A DNA stretch of 64,000 nt from Candidatus Nomurabacteria bacterium (GCA_020632445.1 JACKFN010000001.1:75975-139974), one strand, 5' to 3'. Counted from the stretch's first letter, positions 3,286 to 38,636 are shown. The notes: generated by a model not told the origin, from the letters alone. Numbers and translations are program-made.

Positions 3286-4707
3286 TTAATAGTCCCTAAG
3301 CTTGTTAATCACATCAAATCCCTGAATCTTCTCAAGCGCCTTTGCCTCAATCTGGCGAATACGCTCACGTGTAACGTCAAATTCCTTTCCGACTTCTTCC
3401 AATGTGTGTGTCACACCGTCTGCGAGTCCAAAACGCATCTCAAGAATCTTTTGCTCTCGAGGAGAGAGTTGTGAAATAGCTTCATTGATATATTCCTTGA
3501 GCAGCTGTCTTCCTGCGACCTGTCTTGGTGATACGGTTTTGTTATCCTCAATAAAATCCGAAAGTGGAGAATCGTCGTCATCATCACCAATAGAGGTCTC
3601 AAGTGAAATGGTTTCCTGAGAAATCTTAATAATGTGGTTGATCTTATCAATAGGTTCACCCATTTCCGCAGCAAGCTCCTCAGGGGTCGGATTACGCCCA
3701 AGGTCTTGGAGTAGACGACGGGATATTTGCACGAAGCGATTGATCGTCTCTACCATATGTACCGGAATACGGATTGTACGAGACTGATCAGCCAATGCGC
3801 GCGTAATTGCCTGCCTGATCCACCAGGTAGCATAGGTAGAAAACTTATAGCCACGACGATAGTCAAACTTTTTTACGGCGCGAAACAAACCGACGTTTCC
3901 TTCTTGGATCAAATCAAGCAAGTGCAATTTCTTTCCTACAAATTTCTTGGCGATCGAAACCACCAAACGCAGATTTGCCTCAATCATTTGTTGTTCTGCT
4001 TCCCTATCCCCTCTTTCTTTGCGTTTGGCAAGAGAAACTTCTTCTTCTGCGGTCAAAAGTGGTATTCGGCCAATTTCACGCAAGTACATTTGAATAGAAT
4101 CCTGTGAAAGATTTTTGTAGTCAATACGTACCGCTGACTCAGAATTCTCACTACTGCTCGTGGTCCCAAGTAAGTCAGGGGTTTGCATTCTTGATCCACC
4201 CAAAAGCCCCTCTTTCATTTGCATGATAGAGATACTTGCCCTTGCCATCACATCCAAAAAAGCCTCAAACATCTCTACATAATGTTCGACATGCGGAAAA
4301 ACAGCAAGTACTTCTACTTCTGTCACAAATCCACGAGTGCGACCCTTTTCGATCAAGTGCCACGCTGCCTGTTCATCAGGAGACACCACATGCTCCTTTG
4401 TGGCTACTTTCTTGGGTTCGGTCTTTGATGAGCTCTTGCGAAGACTGGATGCCTTCTTGAGGGCAGCATTCACGCGTGAACGCCCTGTAGACGTCTTACG
4501 CTTCGCTGCTGAGGTGGCTTTTTTTGCTGTTGTTTTACGCACAGCACTGCGTTTCTTTGTTGCTGCCTTTGTTTTTATGGCTGTGACCTTTTTGGCACTT
4601 GCCCGCTTCTTGCTAGCAACTTTCTTTGCTGCGATTTTTCGCGCAGTTGGTTTTTTGACCGCACGCTTTGCGCTGGTCTTCTTGGTTGTCGACTTTTTCG
4701 TCGGCAT
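3286..4707 (-). CDS. rpoD: RNA polymerase primary sigma factor (sigma-70/RpoD) with a ~100-aa Lys/Ala-rich histone-H1-like N-terminal extension
   Basis: Region 2.4 [13 protein letters not shown] and region 4 HTH ([19 protein letters not shown]). Sits directly downstream of dnaG in the classic operon order. The N-terminal extension is made of AKK/KKA/TKK repeats. Confidence 0.9.
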
Positions 4708-4718
4708 GGTATGAATTA

Positions 4719-6494
4719 TCAGTTCAATTGTGAAAATTGTTCTAAAAGTGACTGCAACTTCTGATGGTCGCCTGCTTGCTCAGCCTGAGAAATTTCTTGC
4801 TGCAATTGAGCACGCCTTTGTTTGAGCCAGGTATTTTTGAGCTGCTCGCTAAGACTCCGTATTTCACTACTCGCTTGCGCTTTGCTCAAATGCCCAAAAT
4901 CCAACTCAGCCTTCATGAGTAGGATTTCTACTAAATCAAGTATGTCAGATTGCGGATACTGATGCCGAAATGCCTCGATATCTGCTTGTCCTGCATTATA
5001 CATGGACAGGAGCCTTTCGTAAAGAGGATAAGTAGCCAGCTGCGCCTCAAGTGAAACCAAGAACTCCACAGATCCAGCTTCGGGATACTTTAGGAGTAAG
5101 GCAAAAATGGCCTCCGAAAGCTCATCGGAGCGGGTTCTTTCGGGTCTACTTTCGAGATTTTCCGGTTTGGCCTGAGTTGTAGCTAAAGGTGTTTTGCGAG
5201 TAAGCCTCTTCATGTCTTCCTCCAAAACTTTTATATCTACTGCGAGGAGTGCAGAAAGCTGACTGACCCAATGCGATCTTTCAACCGCATACTGAATTTT
5301 CTGAATTTCAGGGAGAAGCTCATCTGCGGCAGCTTGTTTTTGCTTCGGATCAGAAAGGTTCTTGTCGGAAAACGCCATATCAAAATACCACTGCATAACA
5401 TCCTTGGCATTATCCACACATCTTTGCCAAAGTTCAGGATGCTTTTTTATGACTTCGTCTGGATCTTTTCCATAATCAGGATCAATCTGAATGATCTTGA
5501 CTGACATGCCTGCCTCAAGTGCAATCCCAATAGCTCGCTTGGCAGCAGAAACTCCAGCACTATCTGAATCAAACGAAAAAGCAATATTTTTACTATACCG
5601 TTTGATGAGGTGAATATGTCCCTCGGTAAGAGCTGTGCCGCTGGTTGCAACGACATTTTCGCTTCCATTTTGATGACAACTGATAACATCCGTCTGCCCC
5701 TCTACAAAAATCGCAAGATTTTTTTTCCGTATCGCCTGTTTGGCAAAATGGAGACCAAAAACAACCTGCGACTTGTCGAAAACCAATGTCTGTGGAGTGT
5801 TAATGTACTTCCCGCCAGAGTCCTCGGTTTCAACCAATATACGCGCCGTAAATCCCACGACATCTCCATGTACATTACGAATCGGAAAAATGATTCTCCC
5901 ACGAAACCTGTCATAAAACCCTTTCATTGATTGGCTGCTTGCTCCTTCGCGCTTTATGGTCAGTCCCGATGCAACAAGGTCATCAATGCTGTAGCCTTTT
6001 TTGAGAAGATATTTTGTAAGCAAATCCCACTGATCTACCACAAAGCCTATCTGCCACTTTTCTATGGTTTGATCACTCAATCCTCTTTTTGCCAAGTACT
6101 CACGAGCTGACTTGGCAGCATCAAGCTTGGTGAGAAAATTGTAATAAAAACGTGAAGCTTCAAGATTAATCTCTTTGATTCTATTTTTTTGACTTTTATG
6201 AATGTCCTGCTTGAAATCCGCAAGCTCAACACCTGCCTTTTGTGCAAGGAGCTTGAGTGCCTCAACAAATTCCAACCCCTCTATTTCCTCGACAAAGGTG
6301 AACGCGTCTCCCCCCTTATTACAACCAAAACAATGCCACCTCTGACGATCTCTATTTACCATAAAAGAAGGCGTCTTCTCTCCATGAAATGGACAAAGGC
6401 CTTTGTGGTTGATTCCTGCGGGTTTGAGTTCAATATACTCGCCTATCAGATCAACAATATCGATTTTCTGCTTTATCAGCTGTGTGTCGGACAT
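4719..6494 (-). CDS. dnaG: DNA primase DnaG
   Basis: Zinc ribbon [11 protein letters not shown]...CFGC. Toprim core EGQTDVIS...FDSDSAG. 591 aa, upstream of rpoD on the same strand. Confidence 0.9.
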
Positions 6495-33644: not shown

Positions 33645-34544
33645 TTATACAACCAAAAATCTATGATACGTATACAAAAATGTACAAAAGAAAATTGGAA
33701 TAAAAAACCACATCGGAAACTCAGGTACTGAAGCTCCAGAGACCGCTTCACCTGCAGCTAAGGCATCGACATCTGCACTTGACAAAGCACGATCATAGAC
33801 GAGTACATGATCGATCAAACCGCTTGCATATAAGTTAGAATTTGAAGCTGCACCTACACGAAATTCATTACTACCAGATGCGTTATATGATGAAGCATTT
33901 GTATATGTACCGACTGAAGTACCATTAATATAGTATTCAACCTCACCACTTCTTTGAACGGCGACCAAATGATACCAAGTATTTGTTGTGAGCTGACTTA
34001 TTACCACACGTTGATCGGCAACTCAATACTTTGAGATGTTTATCACATACTGACCACCGACTTGTTCATACTGAAACGCATACCCGGCAGATGAAGGAGT
34101 TCCCTTTGCGACAAAAACCCATGAAGCTTCTGGTCCTGGAGCTCCATCTGGACGAAACCACAAACTAATAGAAAAAGGACCATCCTCTACTTCCAAGATA
34201 CTTTGATCTCCCATAGTGACATAGTCGGTACTACCATTAAAATCAAGAGAACGAACATTTGTGACCTCAAGGGTTGGGACGGTCGTAGAGATGTCTGGAG
34301 TGCCAACGAAACTACCATTGTTTCCATGTCCAGACGAATCATATGATATGGTCCCACTCACTTCATCGAACTTCCAATATCCAACGAGAGCATCTTCAAG
34401 GGCAGCATCTACTTTAGGGACGTATACTGTGCCTGCACACAAGACACAAAAGAGGAGAAAAAGAAAAAAATGCCCTACCCATATGCTAGCTAAGCAATTT
34501 TCACCCCGGGGCTTGATTTTTTTCAATGACATATGAAATCTCAA
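33645..34544 (-). pseudogene. LamG/concanavalin-A-like lectin domain secreted protein interrupted by a single in-frame TGA (two ORFs 34023..34544 and 33645..34007 in the same frame)
   Basis: Both halves carry LamG_3-like sequence (GTISYDSSGHGNNGSF...LDFNGSTDYV ... WYHLVAVQRSGEVEYYINGT...GLIDHVLVYDRALS). Reading through the TGA gives ...INISKY*VADQRVVISQ... with no frame change. Confidence 0.6.
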
Positions 34545-37842: not shown

Positions 37843-37870
37843 TTATTATACCTAAATAGCTACTGAAATC

Positions 37871-37899
37871 AAAAAAACACCTTTCATGGTGTTTTTTTG
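37871..37899. terminator. Rho-independent terminator hairpin
   Basis: AAAAAAACACCtttcatGGTGTTTTTTTG. Confidence 0.6.
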
Positions 37900-38041
37900 T
37901 ACAATGCTCGGCGGGTGGGCGCTGCGCTATATGAACTCGGCACTTCGTGTCCTCTTGGGAAAACCTTCGGGTTTTCCCAACCTTTCCTCTAAATGTAAGG
38001 GGACCCCCCTTACCATCCCCCGTTCAAATCCCACCCTAATC

Positions 38042-38066
38042 AAAAAAAGCCCAAAGGGCTTTTTTA
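38042..38066. terminator. Bidirectional terminator hairpin immediately 3' of the intron-containing tRNA
   Basis: AAAAAAAGCCCaaaGGGCTTTTTT. Confidence 0.65.
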
Positions 38067-38071
38067 TCTGC

Positions 38072-38444
38072 TCGGCGGGTGGGATTTGAACCCACGACCA
38101 ATTGGTTACACGTTCTCCCCCATTTTCATAAGGGCGTGGACTATATCATCACCCGCGAATACCAGATCTTGCCTGGACGCTAGGGTGCAAGGCGCTTCGC
38201 CTCCCAAGGCATAAAGCCCTGAAAGACTACTCCCGTACAGTTTCTCGAACGAATCGAGATCAACATGGGATAGTCTCTGAACCTTTCCAGATTATCATTT
38301 ATTCGATTCTCTGGACTTGGCTGCTGATTACCCGTCAGATTTCTCTGGTGTGGGCTTCCAGCAATTCACCTTGTTTTGCACCTAAGAATTACTTCTTAGG
38401 GCTGCAATTTACAGCCAACTGCTCTACCACTGAGCTACCGCCGA
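38072..38444 (-). tRNA. tRNA (probably Asn, anticodon GUU) interrupted in the anticodon loop by a ~302-nt group-I-like intron
   Basis: 5' exon (38411-38444, minus strand): TCGGCGG-TA-GCTCAGTGGTAGAGC-A-GTTGG-CTGT. 3' exon (38072-38108): TAA-CCAAT-TGGTC-GTGGGTTCAAATCCCAC-CCGCCGA-G. The halves restore a complete cloverleaf with a 7-bp acceptor stem pairing across the gap. The intron (38109..38410) starts after a U that closes a P1-like helix (exon GGCUGU paired with downstream GCAGCC, ending in a U.G wobble). The intron ends in G. Confidence 0.6.
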
Positions 38445-38636
38445 ATGTGGTAATATTGTTTATTCGTACCTTTAGCTTCGCGTTTTACTCCCGCTTGCGG
38501 GACTACCACGCAGCTACCGCCGAATTACATCAAATATACGATCTTCTCATATATTGCTGCGCTCAAGTATACACTCTTTGCCTCCTTTTGTCAAGAAAAA
38601 CATGATGCGCGCTCTAGAGTGCATTTCATGCTTCTC

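What the first reader, a model, noticed from the sequence alone, without database searches (positions are those of the whole stretch)
38072..38444. tRNA gene split by a ~300-nt group-I-like intron in the anticodon loop
Exon halves 372 nt apart on the minus strand reconstitute a complete tRNA: acceptor stem TCGGCGG/CCGCCGA, D-arm GCTCAGTGGTAGAGC, T-arm GTGGGTTCAAATCCCAC.

Features matching group I intron conventions:
- The 5' exon ends ...GGCUGU.
- Six nt downstream is GCAGCC, giving a P1 helix whose last pair is the U.G wobble.
- The intervening sequence ends in G immediately before the 3' exon.
- By my inferred boundaries the insertion lies between nt 35 and 36, which would give anticodon GUU (Asn).

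Intron-containing tRNAs are rare in bacteria. The known cases are a few tRNA-Leu, tRNA-fMet, tRNA-Ile and tRNA-Arg group I introns, plus introns reported in candidate-phyla genomes.

Automated tRNA finders will usually miss this gene, leaving an apparent tRNA-Asn gap.
Basis: partly seen in the sequence, partly recalled or inferred. Interest (0 to 1): 0.7.

Follow-up and report, generated by a model that had tools for sequence, protein, structure and literature searches.

The report
Self-splicing intron inside tRNA-Asn gene
The asparagine tRNA gene of this tiny-genome bacterium (Candidatus Nomurabacteria) is interrupted in its anticodon loop by a 302-base group I intron, a real feature that belongs to a class already published and shown to self-splice in 2025-2026, so it is another example rather than a discovery.

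Summary

On the minus strand:
- Exon 1 (38444-38411) and exon 2 (38108-38071) join into a canonical 72-nt tRNA-Asn(GUU).
- The 302 nt between them (38410-38109) match Rfam's group I intron model end to end at 94.9 bits.
- The group I hallmarks are present: a 6-bp P1 ending in the U.G wobble, P7 strands GACUA/UAGUC, and a terminal G.
- The intron has no homing endonuclease gene.
- Default ARAGORN and the Rfam tRNA model both miss the gene.

NCBI labels the window's proteins "Candidatus Nomurabacteria bacterium", which is Patescibacteria. Nakagawa et al. [quoted passage not shown] A truncated scan of reference genomes found 42 more species with the same architecture. Their introns are homologous to this one and show compensatory changes in P2, P3, P6, P8 and P9.

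Local peculiarities:
- A 74-nt two-hairpin insert lies between P7 and P3'.
- Duplicated fragments of the tRNA's own ends flank the gene.
- Two independent assemblies break exactly at the 5' splice site.

Verdict: a new member of a known kind, of low to moderate interest.

The parts
38566..38594 (-). Sigma-70-like promoter (TTGACA, 17-nt spacer, TATACT), about 120 nt upstream of the tRNA 5' end; the likely promoter of the precursor
   Evidence: 11 of 12 consensus matches. This is a consensus match only; function is inferred.
38503..38525 (-). Leader fragment that copies the tRNA's first 21 nt plus 2 upstream nt (21 of 23 identical), 79 nt upstream of the real 5' end
   Evidence: repeat D1; 2 matches in the window, 0 expected by chance.
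38411..38444 (-). 5' exon of tRNA-Asn, tRNA positions 1-35. It ends GGCUGU; U35 is the 5' splice site.
38109..38410 (-). Group I intron, 302 nt, with no homing endonuclease ORF
   Evidence: RF00028, 94.9 bits. ARAGORN i(35,302); no credible ORF. MFE -109.9 kcal/mol, z = -4.5 against shuffles.
38400..38405 (-). Internal guide sequence GCAGCC. It pairs with exon GGCUGU (38416-38411) to form P1; G38405.U38411 is the wobble pair at the splice site.
   Evidence: GCAGC is present in all 43 family members.
38381..38400 (-). P2 hairpin: CCUAAGAA and UUCUUAGG closed by a GUAA tetraloop
   Evidence: There is strong covariation across the 43 introns.
38281..38373 (-). P3 5' strand (38373-38369), J3/4, and the P4-P5-P6 domain
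   Evidence: P4 and P5 are nearly invariant; P3 and P6 show compensatory changes.
38271..38283 (-). J6/7 and the P7 5' strand (GGUUCAGAGACUA)
   Evidence: GACUA pairs with UAGUC in 42 of 43 introns.
38197..38270 (-). 74-nt insert between P7 and P3' that folds into two hairpins. It sits where P7.1 and P7.2 lie in subgroup IA introns. Only L118 has a comparable expansion at this point.
   Evidence: unaligned insert. MFE -31.2 kcal/mol; the P7 to J8/7 segment is 123 nt here against a family median of 66.
38138..38195 (-). P3 3' strand (38192-38188), P8 (38187-38150), J8/7 and the P7 3' strand (GAUAUAGUCC, 38147-38138)
38109..38134 (-). P9 hairpin (38134-38117) and the 3' tail ending in the terminal G (omega-G) at 38109
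   Evidence: All 43 family introns end in G.
38071..38108 (-). 3' exon of tRNA-Asn: positions 36-72 plus the discriminator G73. CCA is not encoded.
38040..38062 (-). Bidirectional terminator-like hairpin (A-run, GCCC/GGGC stem, T-run) directly after the tRNA
   Evidence: Read directly from the sequence. The consensus scan did not list it.
38022..38036 (-). Inverted, 15 of 15 exact copy of the T-loop and T-stem 3' strand of the tRNA
   Evidence: inverted repeat I2.
37905..37919 (-). Direct, 15 of 15 exact copy of the tRNA 3' end (T-stem 3' strand, acceptor 3' strand, G73 and CA), followed by a second terminator-like hairpin at 37870-37899
   Evidence: repeats D3 and I4; 2 matches in the window, 0.05 expected.

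Best explanation
This is the tRNA-Asn(GUU) gene of a Patescibacteria genome (NCBI label Candidatus Nomurabacteria bacterium). A 302-nt group I intron without a homing endonuclease gene interrupts it between anticodon nucleotides 35 and 36.

Proposed mechanism:
1. The precursor is probably transcribed from the sigma-70-like promoter at 38594-38566 and ends at the hairpin after the gene.
2. The intron folds into the group I core (P3-P9).
3. Its guide sequence GCAGCC pairs with exon GGCUGU to form P1, with the U35.G wobble marking the 5' splice site.
4. A free guanosine bound in P7 attacks after U35.
5. The terminal G (38109) then takes its place in the G-binding site, and the freed 3'-OH of U35 attacks before U36.
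6. The exons are ligated, restoring the anticodon loop CUGUUAA.
7. RNase P, 3' trimming and CCA addition finish the tRNA.

Shown here: the sequence and structure features, homology to a family with compensatory base changes, and the Asn identity of the product. Inferred from experiments on homologous introns: the self-splicing activity. Not established: whether this is the genome's only tRNA-Asn gene.
For: - The group I model RF00028 matches end to end at 94.9 bits against a gathering score of 50.
- The in silico spliced product is a canonical tRNA-Asn(gtt), and intron-tolerant ARAGORN gives i(35,302).
- P1 is 6 bp with the U.G wobble at the splice site, and the intron ends in G.
- P7 is GACUA/UAGUC.
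- The intron RNA folds much better than shuffled controls, z = -4.5.
- 42 other reference-genome species have the same split tRNA-Asn. All 42 introns match this one by nhmmer, with a best E of 6e-18.
- Alignment of the 43 introns shows many compensatory changes in P2, P3, P6, P8 and P9.
- The best annotated matches to the spliced tRNA that span the anticodon arm are tRNA-Asn genes, at 90-96% identity.
- NCBI names the window's proteins Candidatus Nomurabacteria.
- PMC13011429 reports this class and shows precise in vitro self-splicing at 35/36, abolished by mutating the terminal G to C.
Against: - No RNA data or splicing assay exists for this particular intron.
- The intron carries an unusual 74-nt insert between P7 and P3'. 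Among the 43 introns only L118 has a comparable expansion there, and its effect on activity is unknown.
- P1 does not co-vary with exon positions 30 and 31 across the family, so comparative support for P1 is conservation only.
- The rest of the genome could not be searched for a second, uninterrupted tRNA-Asn.
- Two Logan assemblies break exactly at the 5' splice site, which shows that exon 1 has another continuation somewhere in those samples.
- The taxonomic assignment rests on NCBI's label for a metagenome-assembled genome.
Confidence: 0.9

Rival explanations
1. The gene is a decaying or redundant copy. The intron no longer splices efficiently, and asparagine decoding is supplied by another, uninterrupted tRNA-Asn gene in the genome.
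For: - The locus has been rearranged: partial copies of the tRNA's 5' and 3' ends and an inverted T-arm copy flank it.
- Two independent assemblies break exactly after exon 1. That fits an exon1-exon2 sequence, or a different intron behind the same exon, in the same samples.
- The 74-nt insert in the core is atypical for the family.
Against: - Every core helix, both P7 strands, the guide sequence and the terminal G are intact.
- Both exons form a flawless cloverleaf.
- A near-consensus promoter and a terminator flank the gene.
- In complete Patescibacteria genomes the two intron-split genes chosen for the splicing assays, one tRNA-Asn and one tRNA-Asp, are the sole genomic copies of those tRNA genes (PMC13011429).
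- No intronless version of this exact exon junction appeared among the 120 metagenome rows returned, although that scan was truncated.
Confidence: 0.06
2. The gene is a tRNA-Thr(UGU) with the intron at 33/34. The exon ends GGCU, the intron ends ...AACG, and the 3' exon begins UGUAACC.
For: - These boundaries also have a U before the intron and a G at its end.
- ARAGORN accepts that spliced product as tRNA-Thr(tgt).
- ARAGORN made this call for many relatives.
Against: - In P1, U33 pairs with A, not G. The only U.G wobble is at U35.
- The tRNA body matches annotated tRNA-Asn genes and has the U1-A72 and G73 features typical of bacterial tRNA-Asn, a point from general knowledge.
- The window's own tRNA-Thr(CGU) has a different body.
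- PMC13011429 sequenced the spliced products of homologous introns and found 35/36. It identifies Thr 33/34 as a software artefact caused by a 2-nt shift.
Confidence: 0.03
3. The insert is not a ribozyme but another kind of insertion, such as a mobile element or an assembly chimera, that happens to split a tRNA gene.
For: The flanking partial duplications show that recombination has occurred at this locus.
Against: - The group I model matches over its full length.
- The insert is homologous to 42 other introns at the identical tRNA position.
- Covariation supports the fold.
- The sequence is not repeated elsewhere in the window.
- Two independent Logan assemblies are identical to the window up to the splice site.
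Confidence: 0.01

Closest known systems
[quoted passage not shown]
   Same: - Same tRNA, same insertion point, same phylum.
- U|...G| boundaries, no endonuclease gene, and missed or mis-called by standard tRNA finders.
- Homologous by sequence to 42 such introns found here.
   Different: - This genome is a draft metagenome-assembled genome and was probably outside their set of 95 complete genomes.
- At 302 nt the intron is at the long end of the family (193-309 nt), because of a 74-nt insert between P7 and P3'.
- Its subgroup (IA in their classification) was not tested here.
Cyanobacterial and plastid tRNA-Leu(UAA) group I intron, and the proteobacterial tRNA-Ile(CAU) (Azoarcus) and tRNA-Arg(CCU) (Agrobacterium) introns
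   Same: They are self-splicing group I introns in a bacterial tRNA anticodon loop, with P1 built from anticodon stem-loop nucleotides and no endonuclease gene.
   Different: - The tRNAs and insertion sites differ: 34/35 and 36/37.
- Those introns are subgroup IC3, from general knowledge.
- The paper places the 35/36 introns in IA.
Phage group I introns in protein-coding genes, for example the intron in the split thyX gene of Alteromonas phage vB_AmaP_AD45-P1
   Same: This is the best DNA match in the phage collection: 78% identity over 88-90 nt covering P1 to P6. Rfam confirms a group I intron there at 105.7 bits.
   Different: The phage intron sits in a protein-coding gene and lies next to HNH and GIY-YIG endonuclease genes. 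The similarity is limited to the conserved core.

Membership tests
Group I intron (Rfam RF00028) | Conserved catalytic core helices P3-P9 in the canonical order | tested here: met
   94.9 bits against a gathering score of 50, model positions 1-253 of 253. P3, P4, P5, P6, P8 and P9 are recovered in a 43-intron alignment, with compensatory changes in P3, P6, P8 and P9.
Group I intron (Rfam RF00028) | P1 helix between the 5' exon and the internal guide sequence, with a U.G wobble at the 5' splice site | tested here: met
   GGCUGU pairs with GCAGCC over 6 bp, and U38411.G38405 is the terminal pair. GCAGC is conserved in all 43 relatives but does not co-vary with the exon.
Group I intron (Rfam RF00028) | Terminal guanosine (omega-G) immediately before the 3' exon | tested here: met
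   G at 38109. All 43 family introns end in G.
Group I intron (Rfam RF00028) | P7 helix that forms the guanosine-binding site | tested here: met
   GACUA (38275-38271) pairs with UAGUC (38143-38139). The same pairing is present in 42 of 43 introns.
Group I intron (Rfam RF00028) | Guanosine-dependent self-splicing by two transesterifications | not testable with these tools
Patescibacteria tRNA-Asn/Asp 35/36 group I introns (PMC13011429) | Insertion between nt 35 and 36 of tRNA-Asn(GUU), restoring a canonical tRNA on splicing | tested here: met
   Asn(gtt), i(35,302); the tRNA body matches annotated tRNA-Asn genes; the 33/34 alternative was examined and rejected.
Patescibacteria tRNA-Asn/Asp 35/36 group I introns (PMC13011429) | Host belongs to Patescibacteria (the candidate phyla radiation) | tested here: met
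   five window proteins are exact NCBI entries (MCB9798171 and others) named Candidatus Nomurabacteria bacterium. This rests on the depositor's or NCBI's label only.
Patescibacteria tRNA-Asn/Asp 35/36 group I introns (PMC13011429) | Sequence homology of the intron to other members | tested here: met
   nhmmer hits to all 42 other 35/36 tRNA-Asn introns, best E = 6e-18. Global identity is only about 54%, so no member is close.
Patescibacteria tRNA-Asn/Asp 35/36 group I introns (PMC13011429) | Structural subgroup IA | tested here: inconclusive
   No subgroup covariance models were available. The 74-nt two-hairpin insert lies between P7 and P3', where P7.1 and P7.2 of IA introns lie. Most relatives have little sequence at that junction.
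Patescibacteria tRNA-Asn/Asp 35/36 group I introns (PMC13011429) | Sole tRNA-Asn gene of the genome | not testable with these tools
   Only 64 kb of the genome is available, and no other tRNA-Asn lies in the window. The contig break at the splice site leaves the question open.
Subgroup IC3 tRNA introns (tRNA-Leu UAA, tRNA-Ile CAU, tRNA-Arg CCU) | Insertion at 34/35 (Leu) or 36/37 (Arg, Ile) of those tRNAs | tested here: not met
   The tRNA is Asn and the site is 35/36.
Protein-spliced (bulge-helix-bulge) tRNA introns of archaea and eukaryotes | Short intron, usually at 37/38, flanked by a bulge-helix-bulge motif and lacking a ribozyme core | tested here: not met
   The intron is 302 nt, has a full group I core and sits at 35/36.

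The most novel reading that the evidence does not exclude
Intron-bearing tRNA-Asn genes in these lineages may carry footprints of how they were acquired. Short copies of the tRNA's own 3' end lie 70-230 nt downstream, sometimes with an inverted T-arm copy and sometimes with a 5'-end copy upstream. Within shared exon types these occur next to 8 of 20 intron-bearing genes and 5 of 92 intronless genes (exact stratified P about 0.001).

If the association is real, endonuclease-less tRNA introns might spread or be fixed through recombination events that replace or duplicate part of the tRNA gene, rather than by classical homing. Candidate routes are integration of a small element at an attachment site, or error-prone repair of a double-strand break.

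The exact contig breaks at the splice site might also reflect intron-plus and intron-minus forms co-existing in the sampled community.
Probability: 0.12. Interest if true: 0.5.

Novelty: new member of a known kind. Interest (0 to 1): 0.25.

Why it matters
- Annotation: the gene is invisible to default tRNA finders. This genome would appear to lack tRNA-Asn, which lowers tRNA-based completeness scores, and software that tolerates introns may mis-call it as tRNA-Thr.
- Biology: it is one more instance of an organism with a very reduced genome depending on a ribozyme to mature an essential tRNA. The truncated scan here also shows that the class extends over many more uncultured lineages than the complete-genome survey covered. 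Besides many Patescibacteria classes, it includes metagenome-assembled genomes labelled Omnitrophota, Planctomycetia and Gammaproteobacteria.
- Limits: it opens no new question by itself. The flanking tRNA-end fragments are the only element that might.

Tried and rejected
1. tRNA-Thr(UGU) with the intron at 33/34. The boundaries are formally possible. I rejected this on the position of the P1 wobble and the Asn identity of the tRNA body.
2. P1 covariation with exon positions 30 and 31 across 43 introns. There is none: the guide sequence GCAGC is constant and P1 is 4-6 bp.
3. A homing endonuclease in the intron. No credible ORF exists.
4. A larger genomic island bounded by tRNA-end repeats. Only the two local copies exist in 64 kb. 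No integrase domain turned up in neighbouring ORFs, and there are no convincing phage hits.
5. The trailer, the leader or the 74-nt insert as a repeated mobile element. None is repeated in the window or in any locus.
6. The trailer as a known RNA family. Rfam has no match at permissive thresholds.
7. The trailer as specific to intron-bearing genes. It also occurs downstream of intronless tRNA-Asn genes, although less often.
8. The 3' side of the Logan contig break. The downstream contig starts at 38004, not at the 3' splice site, so it gives no matching junction signal.
9. ORF-based look-ups meant to retrieve contigs across the junctions found nothing.
10. An intronless copy of the window's exact exon junction in JGI metagenomes. 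None appeared among the 120 rows returned, and the scan was truncated.
11. A closely syntenic pair of intron-plus and intron-minus loci to reconstruct the insertion event. Only 65-75% identical flanks were available.

Full report
**1. The observation**

Reading the minus strand confirms every sequence statement in the finding.
- The gene starts at T38444. Acceptor strand TCGGCGG is followed by the D-arm GCTCAGTGGTAGAGC and the anticodon stem strand GTTGG, and the exon ends CTGT at 38411.
- After 302 nt, at 38108, the sequence resumes TAA-CCAAT-TGGTC-GTGGGTTCAAATCCCAC-CCGCCGA-G and ends at 38071.
- Joined, the two parts form a 72-nt cloverleaf that ARAGORN calls tRNA-Asn(gtt). ARAGORN with its intron option calls the unspliced gene Asn(gtt) with an intron of 302 nt after position 35.
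- Small corrections: the exons are 302 nt apart, not 372; the discriminator G is at 38071; CCA is not encoded.

**2. The insert is a group I intron**

- Rfam RF00028 matches 38422-38117 on the minus strand at 94.9 bits (gathering score 50, E = 3.5e-23), covering the whole model.
- The guide sequence GCAGCC (38405-38400) pairs with exon GGCUGU over 6 bp. U38411.G38405 is the wobble pair at the splice site.
- The P7 strands are GACUA (38275-38271) and UAGUC (38143-38139).
- The intron ends in G38109.
- The RNA folds far better than shuffled controls: -109.9 against -82.9 kcal/mol, z = -4.5.
- There is no credible ORF, so there is no homing endonuclease gene.
- A near-consensus sigma-70-type promoter lies upstream (38594-38566, 11 of 12 matches). 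A bidirectional terminator-like hairpin follows the gene (38062-38040, read).

**3. Asn or Thr**

Shifting both boundaries by 2 nt also gives a U before the intron and a G at its end, and the product is then accepted as tRNA-Thr(tgt). I reject this for four reasons.
- The only U.G wobble in P1 is at U35.
- The best annotated matches that span the anticodon arm are tRNA-Asn genes: 96.5% over 57 nt in Vibrio phage PhiImVa-1, and 90.5% over 63 nt in Escherichia phage Cyrano and in E. coli plasmid records.
- The window's own tRNA-Thr(CGU) has a different body.
- The literature identifies this exact 2-nt shift as a software artefact and settled it by sequencing spliced products.

**4. Relatives**

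- Applying group I boundary rules, 42 loci besides the window are tRNA-Asn(GUU) genes split at 35/36 by 193-309 nt.
- Most are Patescibacteria: Saccharibacteria, Paceibacterota, Kaiserbacteria, Daviesbacteria, Berkelbacteria and Peregrinibacteria. Some metagenome-assembled genomes are labelled Omnitrophota, Planctomycetia, Gammaproteobacteria or Nevskiaceae.
- All 42 introns are detectably homologous to the window's by nhmmer, up to 56 bits, but none is close; global identity is about 54% at best.
- A 43-sequence alignment recovers P2, P3, P4, P5, P6, P8 and P9. Compensatory changes are abundant in P2, P3, P6, P8 and P9, and P4 and P5 are nearly invariant.
- P7 is invariant in 42 of 43.
- The guide sequence GCAGC is constant and does not co-vary with exon positions 30 and 31, so P1 is 4-6 bp. 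The window has the full 6.
- The window's extra length lies in one place: a 74-nt insert (38270-38197) between P7 and P3' that folds into two hairpins. Only L118 has a similar expansion there; the P7 to J8/7 segment is 123 and 129 nt in these two against a family median of 66. This is where P7.1 and P7.2 lie in subgroup IA introns (general knowledge), but I could not run a subgroup classifier.

**5. The organism**

Five window proteins (RpoD, DnaG, a PEP-utilising enzyme, RlmN and a DEAD-box helicase) are exact NCBI entries, MCB9798171 to MCB9798202. NCBI names them Candidatus Nomurabacteria bacterium, on a 189-kb contig. That places the window in Patescibacteria. The assignment rests on that label.

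**6. What is known**

Nakagawa et al. (mSystems 2026, PMC13011429; preprint July 2025) describe exactly this class.
- In 95 complete Patescibacteria genomes, 15 tRNA-Asn(GUU) and 3 tRNA-Asp(GUC) genes carry group I introns at 35/36. Many are missed, or mis-called as Thr 33/34, by ARAGORN and tFind.
- In vitro transcripts self-splice precisely at 35/36, and a mutation of the terminal G to C blocks exon ligation.
- Among 4,934 complete bacterial genomes, 28 introns sit at 35/36: 19 in Patescibacteria, the rest in Cyanobacteriota, Nitrospirota, Bacillota_A, Bipolaricaulota and Pseudomonadota.
- 25 of those 28 are classed IA, and most tRNA introns lack endonuclease genes.

The window's intron is therefore a new member of a known, experimentally validated kind.

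**7. Side observations**

(a) Fragments of the tRNA's own ends surround the gene.
- A 21 of 23 identical copy of the 5' end lies 79 nt upstream (38525-38503).
- An exact inverted 15-nt copy of the T-loop and T-stem lies just past the terminator (38036-38022).
- An exact 15-nt direct copy of the 3' end lies 164 nt downstream (37919-37905), followed by a second terminator-like hairpin.
- Similar downstream copies, each matching its own tRNA, occur in 8 other intron-bearing loci. Spacing is often 143-177 nt. L021 also has the nested 5' copy, and L106, L039 and L059 also have the inverted copy.
- The same architecture occurs downstream of intronless tRNA-Asn genes of the same types from metagenomes, so it is a property of the locus, not of the intron. 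It is less frequent there, however. Within shared anticodon-stem types, after collapsing near-duplicates, the counts are 8 of 20 intron-bearing against 5 of 92 intronless, exact stratified P = 0.0012.
- The two sets come from different collections and are not phylogenetically matched, so I treat the association as a lead only.
- In L216 the inverted part is the far arm of a long palindrome centred on the terminator, and the direct repeat runs on into the tRNA's trailer. That looks like an attachment-site or duplication scar rather than an RNA gene.
- Rfam has no match. The module is not repeated elsewhere. No integrase domain turned up in the neighbouring ORFs.

(b) Two Logan assemblies of different runs (SRR12358675 and SRR12358676) are identical to the window but both end exactly at 38411, the last base of exon 1.
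- In a de Bruijn assembly this means that the last 30 nt of exon 1 are followed by at least two different sequences in those samples.
- The candidates are an intronless tRNA-Asn (a paralogue, an allele or a relative), a relative with a different intron, or spliced RNA.
- The downstream contig begins at 38004, not at the 3' splice site, so there is no matching signal on that side.
- I could not retrieve the alternative path.

(c) The only phage-collection match of the region lies inside a group I intron of the split thyX gene of Alteromonas phage AD45-P1, next to HNH and GIY-YIG endonuclease genes. It reflects the shared ribozyme core.

**8. Verdict**

- Mechanism: guanosine-initiated self-splicing that restores tRNA-Asn(GUU). 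This is inferred from intact hallmarks and from experiments on homologues, with confidence 0.9.
- Novelty: a new member of a known kind.
- Interest: 0.25. The practical value is in annotation and completeness scoring. The flanking tRNA-end fragments and their apparent enrichment at intron-bearing genes are the only part that might lead somewhere new.

Noticed in passing
window 38503-38525, 38022-38036 and 37905-37919 (minus strand); also L021, L039, L059, L084, L106 (intron-bearing) and L129, L132, L192, L196, L216, L219 (intronless): Partial copies of the tRNA-Asn gene's own ends flank the gene. A copy of the 5' end lies upstream. An inverted T-arm copy lies just past the terminator. A direct copy of the 3' end lies about 140-230 nt downstream. 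The layout recurs in diverse lineages, each copy matching its local tRNA, and matches no Rfam family. It also occurs at intronless genes, but less often: 5 of 92 against 8 of 20 within shared exon types, stratified P about 0.001. The two sets come from different collections.
   Followed up: partly
window 38411 (L001 and L002 from Logan runs SRR12358675 and SRR12358676): Two independent assemblies that are identical to the window both end exactly at the last base of the 5' exon. This implies a second continuation of exon 1 in those samples: an intronless copy, a different intron, or spliced RNA. The alternative path could not be retrieved.
   Followed up: partly
window 38197-38270 (minus strand); L118: A 74-nt, two-hairpin insert lies between P7 and P3' of the intron. 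Among the 43 introns only L118 has a comparable expansion at this junction, and the two inserts show no obvious sequence similarity. This is the position of P7.1 and P7.2 in subgroup IA introns.
   Followed up: partly
L118, L031, L026, L098, L042 compared with window 3286-6494: In several intron-bearing genomes the split tRNA-Asn lies within a few kb downstream of the dnaG-rpoD operon. In the window the same two genes are about 32 kb away. RpoD is 53-62% identical between them.
   Followed up: no
L084 (labelled Nevskiaceae); L066, L098, L118 (labelled Gammaproteobacteria): Some loci with the intron carry non-Patescibacteria labels. L084 has tRNA-Asn exons identical to those of several Saccharimonadales genomes, so at least that contig may be mis-binned or mislabelled. 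The apparent spread of the intron outside Patescibacteria in draft genomes should be treated with caution.
   Followed up: no
L244 (Alteromonas phage vB_AmaP_AD45-P1, NC_021532.1, 67.0-68.8 kb): The phage's thyX gene is annotated as two separate thymidylate synthase CDSs with HNH and GIY-YIG endonuclease genes between them. Rfam finds a group I intron there (105.7 bits) that the record does not annotate.
   Followed up: partly
window 33645-34544 (minus strand): Two small ORFs a few kb downstream of the tRNA give weak PHROG matches to phage virion or baseplate-like proteins (best E = 3e-10). They lie in a stretch of ORFs without Pfam hits and with slightly lower GC content (0.40 against 0.43).
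   Followed up: no
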